Position numbers and translations under genes: made by a program
Part shown: piece after piece, positions 36,915 to 38,347 of the stretch
Position numbering within the stretch: the first letter of the stretch is position 1
Layout: the number at the start of each line of letters is the position of its first letter
Notes under the pieces: model-generated
Databases searched by the model: none
What the model was told of the DNA's origin: nothing
The model's input: only the letters and a program-made list of their open reading frames with translations
From: Escherichia coli
GTDB lineage: Bacteria; Pseudomonadota; Gammaproteobacteria; Enterobacterales; Enterobacteriaceae
Length of the DNA stretch: 64,000 nucleotides
Assembly (NCBI RefSeq): GCF_013315695.1
Contig: NZ_CP054353.1
Reading direction: 5' to 3' (one strand)

Positions 36915-37567
36915 TGAGTAATAAATATTGCCAGGCGCTGGTGGAACTGCGGAACAAACCAGCCCATGAACTGAAGGAAGTGGGCGATCAGTGGCGCACG
37001 CCGGACAACATTTTCTGGGGAATTAACACCCTGTTTGGCCCGTTTGTTCTGGATCTGTTCACTGACGGTGATAACGCCAAATGTGCTGCGTATTACACTG
37101 CGGAAGACAACGCGCTGGCGCATGACTGGTCTGAACGTCTTGCGGAGCTTAAAGGTGCTGCCTTTGGTAATCCCCCGTACAGCCGCGCCAGTCAGCATGA
37201 GGGGCAATACATCACCGGCATGCGTTACATCATGAAACATGCCAGTGCCATGCGTGATAAAGGCGGGCGCTATGTTTTCCTGATCAAAGCTGCCACCAGC
37301 GAAGTGTGGTGGCCGGAAGATGCAGATCATATTGCTTTTATTCGCGGGCGTATTGGTTTTGAACTGCCTGCCTGGTTTATCCCGAAAGACGAAAAGCAGG
37401 TGCCAACAGGTGCTTTCTTCGCTGGTGCTATTGCTGTTTTCGACAAGACCTGGAAGGGACCGGCAATCAGCTACATAGGGCGCGATGAACTTGAGGCATG
37501 TGGTGAGGCGTTTCTGGCGCAGGTTCGCCAGCAGGCGGAAAAACTGGTCAGGGAGATGGCGGCATGA
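36914..37567 (+). CDS. phage N6-adenine DNA methyltransferase (Dam-like)
   Basis: Start taken at MSNKYCQALVELRNKPAHE...WRTPDNIFWGI...FGNPPYS (NPPY catalytic motif). Confidence 0.8.
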   Translation: MSNKYCQALVELRNKPAHELKEVGDQWRTPDNIFWGINTLFGPFVLDLFTDGDNAKCAAYYTAEDNALAHDWSERLAELKGAAFGNPPYSRASQHEGQYITGMRYIMKHASAMRDKGGRYVFLIKAATSEVWWPEDADHIAFIRGRIGFELPAWFIPKDEKQVPTGAFFAGAIAVFDKTWKGPAISYIGRDELEACGEAFLAQVRQQAEKLVREMAA

Positions 37568-37890
37568 CGACGTTAACTCAATGCCAGCAGCAGGTGCTGG
37601 ATATGCTGATTTCTTATCAGAAAGAACGTGGCTTCCCGCCAACCAATCAGGAGGTGGCAACCATGCTGGGATACCGTTCGGTGAATGCAGCGGTGGAGCA
37701 TCTTCGCGCACTGGAGAAAAAAGGCGTCATCACGATAAAGCGTGGCGTGGCCCGGGGGATAACGCTTCATACTGCGATGAAGGACGACGACAGCGAGGCG
37801 GTCGGGATTATCCGCGCACTGCTTGCCGGTGAGGAAAACGCAAGGCTGCGTGCAACCCACTGGTTACATGAGAGGGGCCTGAAAGTATGA
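37564..37890 (+). CDS. LexA N-terminal DNA-binding-domain-only protein (108 aa)
   Basis: LTQCQQQVLDMLISYQKERGFPPTNQEVATMLGYRSVNAAVEHLRALEKKGVITIKRGVARGITL aligns with LexA residues ~5-70, including the recognition helix. No cleavage site and no S24 domain. Confidence 0.7.
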   Translation: MTTLTQCQQQVLDMLISYQKERGFPPTNQEVATMLGYRSVNAAVEHLRALEKKGVITIKRGVARGITLHTAMKDDDSEAVGIIRALLAGEENARLRATHWLHERGLKV

Positions 37891-38282
37891 AGCTAATACT
37901 GCCTTTTCCGCCCAGCGTGAACACGTACTGGCGACACCCCAACAAAGGGGCGTTTGCTGGTAAGAGCCTGATAAGCGCGGCGGGGCGAAAATTCCAGAGC
38001 GCGGCGTGTGCAGCAATAGTTGAGCAGTTACGTCGTCTGCCGAAACCAACGTCGGCACCTGCTTCAGTGGAGATCGTGTTGTTTCCTCCGGATAACCGGA
38101 TCCGCGATCTGGACAACTATAACAAGGCGCTGTTTGACGCCCTGACCCACGCGGGTGTGTGGGAAGACGACAGTCAGGTGAAAAGAATGCTGGTGGAGTG
38201 GGGACCGGTTATCCCGGAGGGGAAGGTCGAGATCACTATCAGTAAGTACGAAAAAGCGAGTTGCAAATTAGCAACTCGGTAA
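37887..38282 (+). CDS. rusA: RusA-family Holliday junction resolvase
   Basis: MKLILPFPPSVNTYWRH...RIRDLDNYNKALFDALTHAGVWEDDSQV is the RusA signature (D-x-D-N, catalytic Asp residues). Confidence 0.85.
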   Translation: MKLILPFPPSVNTYWRHPNKGAFAGKSLISAAGRKFQSAACAAIVEQLRRLPKPTSAPASVEIVLFPPDNRIRDLDNYNKALFDALTHAGVWEDDSQVKRMLVEWGPVIPEGKVEITISKYEKASCKLATR

Positions 38283-38327
38283 CGGAATTGAGCAACACCC
38301 TAAATTTGGGTATTACCTCGTTAAAGA

Positions 38328-38347
38328 TACTGTATTTATGAACAGTG
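38328..38347. promoter_or_regulatory. LexA (SOS) box upstream of the KilA-N gene
   Basis: TACTGTATTTATGAACAGTG fits CTGT-N8-ACAG and matches 16/20 of TACTGTATATATATACAGTA. In a low-GC intergenic region. A possible promoter TTGATA-17-TAAGTT lies just downstream (38353-38381). Confidence 0.6.

What the first reader, a model, noticed from the sequence alone, without database searches (positions are those of the whole stretch)
37564..38347. Phage-encoded LexA DNA-binding domain without the cleavable domain, next to a good SOS box in front of a KilA-N gene
The 108-aa ORF 37564-37890 aligns with the LexA N-terminal domain. Its sequence LTQCQQQVLDMLISYQKERGFPPTNQEVATMLGYRSVNAAVEHLRALEKKGVITIKRGVARGITL compares with LexA [65 protein letters not shown] (from memory). 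The match includes the recognition-helix motif S-x-NAA-x-EHL.

The ORF ends about 40 residues later. It has no Ala-Gly cleavage site and no Ser/Lys S24 peptidase domain.

After rusA, in a low-GC intergenic region, TACTGTATTTATGAACAGTG (38328-38347) fits CTGT-N8-ACAG. It matches 16/20 of the LexA-box consensus and lies just upstream of a KilA-N domain gene (38445-39260).

Established parallels: LexA-controlled antirepressors induce coliphage 186 (Tum) and the Gifsy prophages.

Inference: the KilA-N gene is an SOS-controlled antirepressor-class gene. The truncated LexA paralogue would be uncleavable by RecA*. It could hold this box, or host SOS boxes, repressed, or tune induction alongside the self-cleaving CI repressor. 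I do not know of a described function for such a DBD-only LexA in lambdoid phages.
Basis: partly seen in the sequence, partly recalled or inferred. Interest (0 to 1): 0.65.

Follow-up and report, generated by a model that had tools for sequence, protein, structure and literature searches.

The report
Prophage mini-LexA beside an SOS box

Summary
ORF 37564-37890 is a LexA winged-helix DNA-binding domain (Pfam 2.9e-19; AlphaFold model 1.0 Å from E. coli LexA–DNA). It keeps 4 of 5 DNA-contact residues, has no S24 peptidase, and ends in a conserved two-helix tail. It is under purifying selection and overlaps dam and rusA by 4 bp each in the early-right (nin) operon.

It belongs to a large prophage family (PHROG 362) across Enterobacteriaceae, which databases already call "LexA family protein". 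I found no functional study. The only characterised truncated phage LexA homologue, GIL01 gp6, shows no detectable sequence similarity to it.

TACTGTATTTATGAACAGTG (38328-38347) scores above the median of known E. coli SOS boxes. It is absent from orthologous KilA-N upstream regions in other genera and from many mini-LexA phages.

Diverged mini-LexA genes in Klebsiella and Enterobacter prophages sit just downstream of a different strong SOS box. That layout resembles the LexA-controlled Gifsy operon.

Best reading, inferred: a RecA-insensitive LexA surrogate that re-occupies SOS-type operators after induction.

The antirepressor role proposed for KilA-N is unsupported. The "no Ala-Gly" statement is literally wrong, since Ala88-Gly89 exists, but this is probably irrelevant.

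The parts
37564..37890 (+). mini-LexA gene (108 aa): LexA-type winged-helix domain plus a C-terminal two-helix tail, with no S24 peptidase. Its ATG overlaps the dam stop codon (ATGA) and its stop overlaps the rusA start (ATGA).
   Evidence: pN/pS of 0.07-0.16 against other alleles
37564..37767 (+). DNA-binding domain, residues 1-68 (helices 6-22, 28-35 and 40-52; beta hairpin 56-68)
   Evidence: Pfam residues 1-65; AF2 secondary structure; Foldseek hit to 3jso with rmsd 1.0 Å
37681..37719 (+). Recognition helix (residues 40-52), with Ser39 just before it. It keeps LexA contact residues S39, N41, A42 and E45; E44 is replaced by Val.
   Evidence: alignment; contact residues listed in PMC3091678
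37780..37872 (+). Family-specific tail, residues 73-103: two predicted helices (73-88 and 93-103). Ala88-Gly89 lies at the turn. Candidate dimerisation element (inference).
   Evidence: no PDB fold match for the tail
36881..37567 (+). Phage Dam-type N6-adenine methyltransferase, upstream gene overlapped by 4 bp (ATGA)
   Evidence: Pfam PF05869 at 1.1e-45. A methyltransferase-miniLexA-RusA order recurs in 5 of the 6 additional lineages looked at, with methyltransferases of different families.
37887..38282 (+). rusA Holliday-junction resolvase, downstream gene overlapped by 4 bp (ATGA)
   Evidence: Pfam RusA at 6.4e-15
38257..38278 (-). 8-bp hairpin CGAGTTGC-N6-GCAACTCG at the rusA 3' end. It looks like a terminator only on the minus strand, where a CUUUUUCG tail follows. 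It belongs to the E. coli-specific left part of the intergenic region.
38328..38347 (.). SOS box B, TACTGTATTTATGAACAGTG (16 of 20 consensus positions; 22 bits)
   Evidence: The core is unchanged in every copy aligned (SfIV, PhiR49_1, O111, O170, AZ187); SfIV and AZ187 have A at position 20. The surrounding segment is in about 185 of 5426 E. coli genomes.
38306..38333 (+). Candidate LexA-occluded rightward promoter TTGGGT-16-TACTGT (7 of 12), with its -10 inside the box
   Evidence: read by eye; below the scanner's threshold. The Klebsiella dinI promoter has the same layout, TTGAAC-17-TACTGT.
38353..38381 (+). Promoter-like element TTGATA-17-TAAGTT (8 of 12), shared in position with KilA-N orthologues (Leclercia TTGAAA-17-TAATGT, Cedecea TTGCAT-17-TATTTT). 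The box ends 5 bp upstream of its -35.
   Evidence: below the scanner's threshold
38401..38414 (+). Small palindrome or hairpin GGGAGTGCAGTCCC in the KilA-N leader. Citrobacter has the same sequence and Leclercia has GGGC..GCCC.
   Evidence: weak: 5 sequences
38445..39260 (+). KilA-N domain gene (271 aa): KilA-N domain 1-113, helical linker, disordered 158-181, alpha/beta C-terminal domain 182-266. Function unknown.
   Evidence: The N-terminal half plus the upstream region form a mosaic allele, while the last ~100 residues are near-identical to the SfII allele (one substitution).
32231..32250 (.). SOS box A, TACTGTTTTTACATACAGTA: the best box in the window (25.8 bits), inside the cI linker (codons 70-77). 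A possible second phage-borne target.

Best explanation
SHOWN:
- The 108-aa protein belongs to a large, conserved family of prophage 'mini-LexA' proteins in the Enterobacteriaceae. Each has a LexA-type winged-helix domain and a family-specific two-helix C-terminal tail, and none has a protease domain.
- The gene overlaps dam and rusA by 4 bp each inside the delayed-early (nin) operon, between the replication genes and Q.

INFERRED, expression: it is therefore made only after CI is inactivated or on infection, not in the quiescent lysogen.

INFERRED, activity: four of the five LexA base-contact residues are kept (S39, N41, A42, E45). The protein most likely recognises CTGT-type half-sites, that is, SOS-box-like operators. 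It probably binds as a dimer held by the tail and/or by contacts between the DNA-binding domains on the DNA. Having no S24 domain, it cannot respond to RecA*. In an SOS-induced cell whose own LexA has been destroyed, it could therefore act as an uncleavable LexA surrogate and close LexA operators again.

INFERRED, targets: the phage's own SOS-controlled units, and probably host SOS genes or LexA-controlled antirepressors of rival prophages.

Box B (38328-38347) is most likely a real host-LexA operator. It was acquired on a roughly 100-bp E. coli-specific insert in front of a KilA-N gene that already had its own promoter. It makes transcription here DNA-damage responsive. That could be rightward into KilA-N, leftward as a small RNA, or both. 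What the KilA-N protein does is unknown.
For: Identity and fold.

Contact residues: with PMC3091678.

A functional, conserved protein:
- pN/pS of 0.07-0.16.
- PHROG 362 at 1.2e-59 over the full length.
- 268 cluster representatives at E<=1e-10 and 3456 proteins at E<=1e-8 in the profile search, which also picks up full-length LexA. The best 120 are nearly all short, 104-135 aa, from 10 or more genera, with the tail conserved (Ala97 invariant, Leu101 nearly so).

Operon position: ORF coordinates, and the same gene order in Cronobacter, Kosakonia, Citrobacter, Cedecea, Leclercia and the P0286 lineage.

Link to SOS boxes:
- In Klebsiella, a 27.5-bit box lies 20 bp upstream of dinI, followed by a small phrog_1813 ORF and then mini-LexA.
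- In Enterobacter, the order is terminator-like hairpin, 21-bit box, the same small ORF family (54% identity), then mini-LexA. The repressor next to cro in that locus is a short HTH protein with no S24 domain.
- This is the layout of the experimentally shown LexA-controlled dinI-antirepressor-irsA operon of Gifsy (PMC3121763). My matrix recovers the known Gifsy-2 box at 23.6 bits.
- In Q-anchored loci, strong boxes occur in 15 of 32 with mini-LexA against 1 of 35 without.

Box quality and chance.
Against: - There are no binding, expression or oligomerisation data.
- E44 is replaced by Val here. Other subfamilies change E45 as well (Klebsiella E44L and E45L; Cronobacter E45D), so specificity may differ from LexA.
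- E. coli LexA needs its C-terminal domain to dimerise and bind tightly (established knowledge). The tail's role as a dimeriser is a guess, and the model's pTM is only 0.56.
- About 35 of the 84 loci scanned, and the Cronobacter, Kosakonia and P0286-type loci, have no SOS box within 6-10 kb. A phage-borne box is therefore not required.
- The Q-anchored association is dominated by one physically linked module, which accounts for 14 of the 15 positive loci.
- Box B is absent from orthologous KilA-N leaders. It lies upstream of the conserved promoter-like element, not over it.
- The one characterised truncated phage LexA homologue, gp6, is an activator with its own operator (PMC6182141).
Confidence: 0.4

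Rival explanations
1. gp6-like regulator. The mini-LexA is a phage transcription factor, either an activator or a repressor, with its own operator. Its LexA ancestry says nothing about SOS. A variant of this idea: it binds box B, centred near -50 of the conserved KilA-N promoter-like element, and activates that promoter once host LexA is gone. This would mirror the interplay of LexA and gp6 at promoter P3 of GIL01.
For: In GIL01, gp6 is a truncated LexA homologue that activates P3 from a site overlapping the -35 and recognises a different palindrome (PMC6182141). Helix positions 44 and 45 vary between mini-LexA subfamilies. Many mini-LexA phages have no SOS box nearby. Box B lies just upstream of the conserved -35.
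Against: In this subfamily, 4 of 5 LexA contact residues are kept. I did not identify any alternative conserved palindrome. There is no detectable sequence similarity to gp6. In lambdoid phages late transcription is controlled by Q, and Q is present here.
Confidence: 0.25
2. The two features are not functionally linked. Box B is used only by host LexA. The mini-LexA is next to it simply because both lie in the tightly packed nin region, and it acts elsewhere or on host DNA only.
For: Box B travels on a mosaic module made of the rusA 3' end, the intergenic region and the KilA-N N-terminal half. SfII and Stx2a phages carry a mini-LexA gene only about 3 nonsynonymous differences away from this one but lack that module. 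Among loci with RusA and KilA-N, box B is seen in 14 of 29 with mini-LexA and 0 of 4 without, which is not significant (p=0.12).
Against: Diverged mini-LexA genes are adjacent to SOS boxes in two further lineages. Strong boxes are rare, 1 in 35, in related phages without mini-LexA.
Confidence: 0.3
3. Box B mainly controls a leftward, LexA-repressed small RNA of about 70 nt (roughly 38322 to 38250) that is antisense to the rusA 3' end. It does not control KilA-N, or it controls both.
For: The E. coli-specific insert (about 38250-38350) consists of a hairpin that looks like a terminator only on the minus strand, a second stem-loop, and the box. The minus-strand RNA folds with z=-4.7 and uses G·U pairs that would be mismatches on the plus strand. 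In the AZ187 variant, two C-to-U changes keep the pairing as G·U. SOS-controlled small RNA and toxin loci are known in E. coli (established knowledge: tisB/istR, symE/symR, dinQ/agrB).
Against: The leftward promoter is weak (TTATCA-19-TACAGT). There is no Rfam match. Other variant substitutions break stem pairs. The segment is never found apart from this context, with the same 203 places in E. coli genomes. There are no expression data.
Confidence: 0.2
4. The KilA-N protein is an SOS-induced antirepressor that inactivates this phage's repressor or another prophage's repressor, and the mini-LexA tunes it.
For: LexA-controlled antirepressors outside the immunity region are known: 186 Tum, N15 AntC, and Gifsy GfoA and GftA. 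Fels-1 combines a cleavable repressor with such an antirepressor (PMC3121763). In Cronobacter and Kosakonia the same genomic slot holds a Rha+ANT protein.
Against: The protein has no ANT/KilAC domain. It has no similarity to the Rha+ANT protein of that slot and no PDB or fold match. Similarity to Tum, AntC or the Gifsy antirepressors was not tested. Orthologues lack the box. CI is self-cleaving. The Gifsy antirepressors are 70-90-aa proteins of other families.
Confidence: 0.15
5. Box B is a chance match with no function.
For: One of 20 shuffled 64-kb windows reached the same matrix score. The box is not conserved in orthologous leaders.
Against: It sits in an intergenic, AT-rich region 97 bp from a start codon. 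A second, even better box lies in the same prophage. The core is unchanged in every diverged copy, and position 20 changes toward consensus in SfIV and AZ187. The nin location has a validated precedent (PMC3121763).
Confidence: 0.05

Closest known systems
GIL01 (Bacillus tectivirus) gp6, a truncated LexA homologue (Fornelos et al. 2018, PMC6182141)
   Same: [quoted passage not shown] It is an early gene in a phage whose switch involves host LexA.
   Different: gp6 is 66 aa with no tail. BLASTP finds no similarity to the window protein, so the two are separate sequence families, each more like its own host's LexA (gp6 is 44% identical to B. thuringiensis LexA; the window protein about 50% to the E. 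coli LexA domain). gp6 recognises a different palindrome and activates a late promoter. Here the LexA contact residues are largely kept and the function is untested.
E. coli LexA, its non-cleavable Ind- mutants, and the N-terminal cleavage fragment
   Same: The fold is the same and identity is about 50% over residues 1-68. Contact residues S39, N41, A42 and E45 are shared. Functionally it would resemble LexA(Ind-) if it binds SOS boxes.
   Different: There is no S24 domain, no Ser119/Lys156, and no dimerisation through a C-terminal domain. It scores 70 bits against the TIGR00498 cutoff of 111. It has an extra two-helix tail not found in LexA.
LexA-controlled dinI-antirepressor-irsA operon of the Gifsy prophages (Lemire et al. 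2011, PMC3121763); also 186 Tum and N15 AntC
   Same: A LexA box sits in the nin region downstream of the replication genes and is preceded by a palindrome. The Klebsiella and Enterobacter mini-LexA loci have the same box, (dinI), small ORF, third gene layout.
   Different: In Gifsy-2 the third gene is a DUF1367 protein (irsA), not a mini-LexA. The small ORFs are unrelated to GftA. In the window the box follows the mini-LexA gene and precedes a 271-aa KilA-N protein, and the phage repressor is self-cleaving.
KilA-N / Bro-N / Rha-ANT proteins of phage nin regions
   Same: Pfam KilA-N domain at 1.3e-15. It occupies the same slot, between rusA and the DUF968 gene, as the Rha+ANT proteins of related prophages.
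   Different: There is no ANT/KilAC domain. The C-terminal half has no family or fold match. No function is assigned.

Membership tests
LexA SOS repressor (TIGR00498 equivalog) | N-terminal LexA-type winged-helix DNA-binding domain | tested here: met
   Pfam at 2.9e-19; PDB at 6e-16; model rmsd 1.0 Å to 3jso
LexA SOS repressor (TIGR00498 equivalog) | C-terminal S24 peptidase and dimerisation domain with the Ser/Lys dyad | tested here: not met
   The protein ends at residue 108. There is no Peptidase_S24 hit. TIGR00498 covers only model positions 1-91, scoring 70.4 bits against a cutoff of 110.95.
LexA SOS repressor (TIGR00498 equivalog) | Ala-Gly self-cleavage site in a cleavage-site loop | tested here: inconclusive
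   Ala88-Gly89 aligns with LexA Ala84-Gly85. It is not conserved in the family, and the model places Ala88 at the end of a helix with Gly89 in the turn. Cleavage in trans by a host S24 protein was not testable.
LexA SOS repressor (TIGR00498 equivalog) | Binds CTGT-N8-ACAG operators | not testable with these tools
   Only indirect evidence: 4 of 5 contact residues are kept (PMC3091678).
Short prophage 'LexA family protein' (PHROG 362) | Full-length match of DNA-binding domain plus conserved tail, about 105-135 aa, in a prophage nin-region context | tested here: met
   phrog_362 at 1.2e-59, residues 1-108 on model positions 1-106 of 106; family alignment; synteny
GIL01 gp6-type truncated LexA homologues | Sequence homology to gp6 | tested here: not met
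   BLASTP finds no alignment with E<=100
GIL01 gp6-type truncated LexA homologues | [quoted passage not shown] | tested here: met
   an extra 40-aa tail is present
GIL01 gp6-type truncated LexA homologues | Activates a phage promoter from its own operator | not testable with these tools
   No expression or binding data
E. coli SOS box (LexA operator) | CTGT-N8-ACAG palindrome with an AT-rich spacer and a score in the range of known boxes | tested here: met
   Matches 16 of 20 consensus positions and scores 22.1 bits against a training median of 20.9. The matrix was built from boxes recalled from memory.
E. coli SOS box (LexA operator) | Overlaps or abuts a promoter so that LexA blocks initiation | tested here: inconclusive
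   The scanner finds no promoter. Two sub-threshold candidates exist: one has its -10 inside the box, and the other, conserved across genera, starts 5 bp downstream of the box.
LexA-controlled prophage antirepressor modules (186 Tum, N15 AntC, Gifsy GfoA/GftA) | The gene product binds and inactivates a phage repressor | not testable with these tools
   No similarity to the Cronobacter Rha+ANT protein and no ANT domain. Comparison with Tum and AntC was not done.
LexA-controlled prophage antirepressor modules (186 Tum, N15 AntC, Gifsy GfoA/GftA) | The phage's own repressor lacks a self-cleavage domain and depends on the antirepressor | tested here: not met
   CI at 31767-32459 has HTH and Peptidase_S24 domains. 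Fels-1 shows that this is not an absolute requirement (PMC3121763).
KilA-N domain proteins | Pfam PF04383 domain | tested here: met
   1.3e-15 over residues 10-114

The most novel reading that the evidence does not exclude
Lambdoid prophages of the Enterobacteriaceae, including Stx2-converting phages, encode an uncleavable LexA surrogate. It would be produced from the early lytic operon, or in Klebsiella and Enterobacter prophages from an SOS-box promoter itself. It would re-impose repression on LexA operators after RecA* has destroyed host LexA. This would be a phage-driven shut-off or negative feedback on the SOS regulon. It could also silence the LexA-controlled antirepressors of rival prophages and reshape the mutagenesis and toxin-phage induction triggered by antibiotics.
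Probability: 0.3. Interest if true: 0.75.

Novelty: new variant of a known kind. Interest (0 to 1): 0.5.

Why it matters
LexA cleavage is the master switch for DNA-damage responses, for antibiotic-induced mutagenesis and for induction of many prophages, Shiga-toxin phages among them.

A widespread prophage protein that binds LexA operators but ignores RecA* would be a new layer of control over that switch. It might provide feedback on the phage's own SOS-controlled genes. It might silence competing prophages that depend on LexA-controlled antirepressors. It might also damp host SOS functions during lytic growth.

The family has thousands of database entries (single 90%-identity clusters of 2527, 1017 and 782 members). 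It occurs in Stx2a and Stx2c phages, Shigella serotype-converting phages and Klebsiella prophages. The question can be tested directly with simple binding and reporter assays.

If the protein instead has its own operator, it is an ordinary small phage regulator. The finding then reduces to one more LexA-controlled prophage gene.

Tried and rejected
- Literature: nine full-text searches. None turned up a study of the lambdoid mini-LexA, or any paper linking KilA-N with LexA. Only GIL01 gp6 and the Gifsy work are relevant.
- Is Gifsy irsA a mini-LexA? No. The Gifsy-2 gene in that position is a DUF1367 protein.
- Is the Ala88-Gly89 dipeptide a conserved cleavage site? No. It is not conserved in the family and lies at the end of a predicted helix and the turn after it.
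- Footprinting of box B in KilA-N orthologues from four other genera: the box is absent. Only the downstream promoter-like element and a small hairpin are shared.
- Searching for the E. coli-specific insert in other contexts: it is found only at the same 203 places.
- Rfam on the intergenic region: no match.
- Fold and PDB searches for the KilA-N protein: nothing significant. PADLOC gave only two minor hits: a weak 18-bit CARF match for the mini-LexA, and a 36-bit (7.5e-10) match over residues 63-118 of the KilA-N protein to candidate family PDC-S22, not followed up.
It mostly returned unrelated Burkholderiales, Treponema and other contigs. The one Burkholderia context I inspected was uninformative.
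- cI-anchored loci were all 99% identical or more, so they gave no covariation test for the box inside cI.
- A homodimer or DNA-complex structure prediction could not be run with the tools allowed.
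Full report
**Setting.** The window is an E. coli chromosome carrying a lambdoid prophage inserted beside mlrA/yehV. The early region runs as follows:
- integrase, 25063-26349 (minus strand);
- CI with HTH and Peptidase_S24 domains, 31767-32459 (minus strand);
- a CII-like gene, 32810;
- two Ash/Rha genes, each preceded by isrK and C4 antisense RNA elements;
- an O-like replication gene, 35605;
- PerC, 36420;
- Dam, 36881-37567;
- the 108-aa ORF, 37564-37890;
- RusA, 37887-38282;
- a 162-bp AT-rich gap;
- a KilA-N gene, 38445-39260;
- a DUF968/HNH gene, 39262;
- Q, 40260.

The same block is 99% identical in Shigella phage SfIV and E. coli phage PhiR49_1. It is about 92% identical in SfII, mEp460 and several Stx2a and Stx2c phages, where the ORF is already annotated as "LexA DNA binding domain protein" or "repressor, lexA family". 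RefSeq calls it "LexA family protein".

- The ORF matches Pfam LexA_DNA_bind over its whole length (2.9e-19) and the E. coli LexA structures (6e-16).
- An AlphaFold2 model built on 31 family members (pLDDT 83) has the LexA winged helix at residues 1-68. It superposes on the LexA-DNA crystal structure with rmsd 1.0 Å at 50% identity.
- Of the five LexA residues reported to contact DNA (Ser39, Asn41, Ala42, Glu44, Glu45; PMC3091678), four are kept and Glu44 is Val.
- There is no S24 domain.

Ala88-Gly89 is present and is aligned with the LexA cleavage site by HMMER and BLASTP. The dipeptide is not conserved among relatives. Residues 73-103 are predicted as two helices rather than a cleavage loop. 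I therefore treat it as a vestige or a coincidence.

**It is a real, conserved gene family.**
- Nucleotide alleles differ mostly at synonymous sites, with pN/pS of 0.07-0.16.
- An exhaustive HMMER search and a profile search found thousands of matches. The closest are short proteins of 104-135 aa with the same domain-plus-tail architecture, in prophages of Escherichia, Salmonella, Citrobacter, Cronobacter, Klebsiella, Enterobacter, Atlantibacter, Kosakonia, Raoultella and Hafnia.
- The tail carries an invariant Ala97 and a nearly invariant Leu101.
- The family is PHROG 362, labelled "transcriptional repressor" by annotation only.

The gene order is tight. A DNA methyltransferase precedes mini-LexA in five of the six additional lineages examined, and its family varies (Dam, D12, or C5+D12). 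RusA, a KilA-N or Rha+ANT protein, DUF968 and Q follow. In the window the gene shares ATGA overlaps with both neighbours. It is therefore translated from the delayed-early rightward transcript and has no visible promoter of its own.

**The SOS box.**
- TACTGTATTTATGAACAGTG lies exactly where stated. CTGT-N8-ACAG is over-represented in the window: 4 observed against 0.73 expected.
- A weight matrix built from 28 E. coli boxes recalled from memory scores it at 22.1 bits, above the median of real boxes. One of 20 shuffled windows reached that score.
- The same matrix recovers the experimentally defined Gifsy-2 box.
- The box core is unchanged in every E. coli copy I aligned. In SfIV and AZ187 position 20 changes toward consensus.

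The box is not an ancient feature of the KilA-N gene:
- In SfII and Stx2a phages, rusA and a different KilA-N allele are 20 bp apart with no box.
- KilA-N orthologues of 73-80% identity in Citrobacter, Leclercia, Cedecea and Pantoea have an 85-105-bp leader with no box.
- Aligning those leaders shows that only the right part of the E. coli gap is shared. That part holds a promoter-like TTGATA-17-TAAGTT (Leclercia TTGAAA-17-TAATGT; Cedecea TTGCAT-17-TATTTT) and a small hairpin, GGGAGTGCAGTCCC.
- The left ~100 bp (38250-38350), with a hairpin, a second stem-loop and the box, is an E. coli-specific insert. It is found in about 185 of 5426 complete genomes and never apart from this context.

Relative to the shared promoter-like element, the box would lie at about -60 to -41. 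A weaker promoter, TTGGGT-16-TACTGT, would place its -10 inside the box, as in the Klebsiella dinI promoter. The hairpin at 38257-38278 looks like a terminator only on the minus strand. The minus-strand RNA folds unusually well (z=-4.7), using G·U pairs. A leftward LexA-controlled small RNA is therefore a serious alternative, or additional, output of this box. It has no Rfam match.

**Are the mini-LexA and SOS boxes linked?** The evidence is mixed but suggestive.
- Among 80 viral contigs with a mini-LexA at least 98% identical, strong boxes recur in three separate mosaic modules: inside cI, upstream of KilA-N, and on the first codons of a late-region methyltransferase.
- About 35 of the 84 loci scanned have no box of 15 bits or more within ±10 kb.
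- In a Q-anchored sample, 15 of 32 loci with mini-LexA have a box of 20 bits or more within 8 kb upstream of Q, against 1 of 35 without (p=2e-5). Fourteen of the 15 carry the same physically linked box-B module, so these are not independent events.

More telling are two diverged lineages:
- In Klebsiella prophages, a 27.5-bit box lies 20 bp upstream of dinI. A small phrog_1813 ORF and then the mini-LexA follow.
- In an Enterobacter prophage, the order is a terminator-like hairpin, a 21-bit box, the same small ORF family (54% identity), then the mini-LexA. The repressor next to cro in that locus is a short HTH protein without an S24 domain.

This is the architecture of the LexA-controlled dinI-antirepressor-irsA operon that drives Gifsy induction (PMC3121763). 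There, however, the third gene is a DUF1367 protein, not a mini-LexA. Cronobacter, Kosakonia and the P0286 lineage show no box.

**Mechanism.**
- *Shown:* the fold, the retained contact residues, the absence of the protease domain, conservation, the operon position, the quality of the box, and the recurrent adjacency to SOS boxes.
- *Inferred:* the protein binds CTGT-type operators. It does so as a dimer, through its tail and/or through contacts between DNA-binding domains on the DNA. Because RecA* cannot inactivate it, it stands in for destroyed LexA in induced cells. It would close the phage's own SOS-controlled unit(s) again, and possibly host or rival-prophage LexA operators.

I give this reading about 0.4.

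The main rival comes from the only characterised precedent, GIL01 gp6. That protein is a truncated LexA homologue that evolved its own operator and activates a late promoter (PMC6182141). The window protein has no detectable sequence similarity to gp6, and other mini-LexA subfamilies vary at helix positions 44 and 45. A gp6-like role, including activation from box B, cannot be excluded.

**The KilA-N gene.** Nothing supports calling it an antirepressor:
- it has no ANT/KilAC domain and no similarity to the Rha+ANT protein that fills the same slot elsewhere;
- its model (pLDDT 76) has no significant PDB match;
- the prophage has a self-cleaving CI and two P1-type C4-RNA/Ash-Rha modules.

SOS control of this gene in the E. 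coli allele is plausible but unproven.

**Verdict.** The finding is real, and more than chance, but it is already annotated. Its kind is known: a truncated LexA homologue in a temperate phage, and a LexA-controlled unit in a prophage nin region. What appears undescribed:
- the enterobacterial family itself, with its own tail and LexA-like recognition residues;
- its repeated placement next to SOS-box promoters.

Interest is moderate (0.5). It would be high only if the uncleavable-LexA function is demonstrated.

Noticed in passing
window 32231-32250 (inside cI, 31767-32459, minus strand): The best SOS-box match in the whole window, TACTGTTTTTACATACAGTA (25.8 bits), lies in the cI linker at codons 70-77. 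On the cI-sense strand, TTTACC(32273-32268)-17-TACTGT puts the box on a -10. Downstream there is a GAGGA followed by an in-frame GTG (Val84). An SOS-inducible C-terminal fragment of CI (the S24 and dimerisation domain) is therefore conceivable. A second cI allele (L037) keeps and improves the box through a Cys-to-Tyr change while neighbouring codons differ.
   Followed up: partly
window 33724-33909 and 34587-34775: Two tandem copies of isrK plus C4 antisense RNA (Rfam, 62-81 bits) sit in front of two Ash/Rha-family genes. This is a duplicated module of the kind that controls the antirepressor in the P1/P7 immI region, located in the early-right operon.
   Followed up: no
window 38245-38345, minus strand: The minus-strand RNA folds into two stem-loops (z=-4.7). 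The second is terminator-like, with a CUUUUUCG tail. Together with the SOS box, this looks like a compact leftward LexA-controlled small RNA gene, antisense to the rusA 3' end. It has no Rfam match, and its promoter is weak.
   Followed up: partly
window 38353-38414; L283, L285, L288 around 2420-2500: The KilA-N gene has its own promoter-like element (TTGAxA-17-TAnnnT) and a small leader hairpin (GGGAGTGCAGTCCC, 38401-38414), shared with orthologues in other genera. This suggests the gene is expressed independently of the nin transcript.
   Followed up: partly
L024 14086-14105 (and about 25 other related loci): Another strong SOS box, TACTGTAAAAATAAACAGTG (22.5 bits), covers codons 3-9 of an N4/N6 DNA methyltransferase gene that lies between Q and the holin gene.
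   Followed up: no
L085-L088 5385-6393; L274 7560-8408: In Klebsiella and Enterobacter prophages, a near-consensus SOS box precedes (dinI), a conserved small ORF (phrog_1813, a candidate antirepressor), the mini-LexA, and a 67-aa ORF (phrog_1212). This is a Gifsy-like SOS operon that contains the mini-LexA.
   Followed up: partly
window 40695-45395: The late region resembles a Stx phage without stx. It has three tRNAs (42692-42938), STnc100 (43017-43225), AsxR (43229-43281, minus strand) and a nanS-p-like esterase (43434-45395). A WYL-like gene (40695-41339) and an AraC-family gene (41950-42663) follow Q.
   Followed up: no
window 36881-38282 and related loci: The gene immediately upstream of mini-LexA is a DNA methyltransferase in five of the six additional lineages examined, but its family changes between lineages (PF05869 Dam, PF02086 D12, or a PF00145+PF02086 fusion). 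That pattern suggests a functional pairing rather than simple inheritance.
   Followed up: no
L097-L176: The exact 19-mer of box B also occurs once each in contigs of about 28 Burkholderia genomes and of other Burkholderiales, Treponema and other bacteria. In Burkholderia it is presumably one of their own LexA operators. The one context I inspected was uninformative.
   Followed up: no
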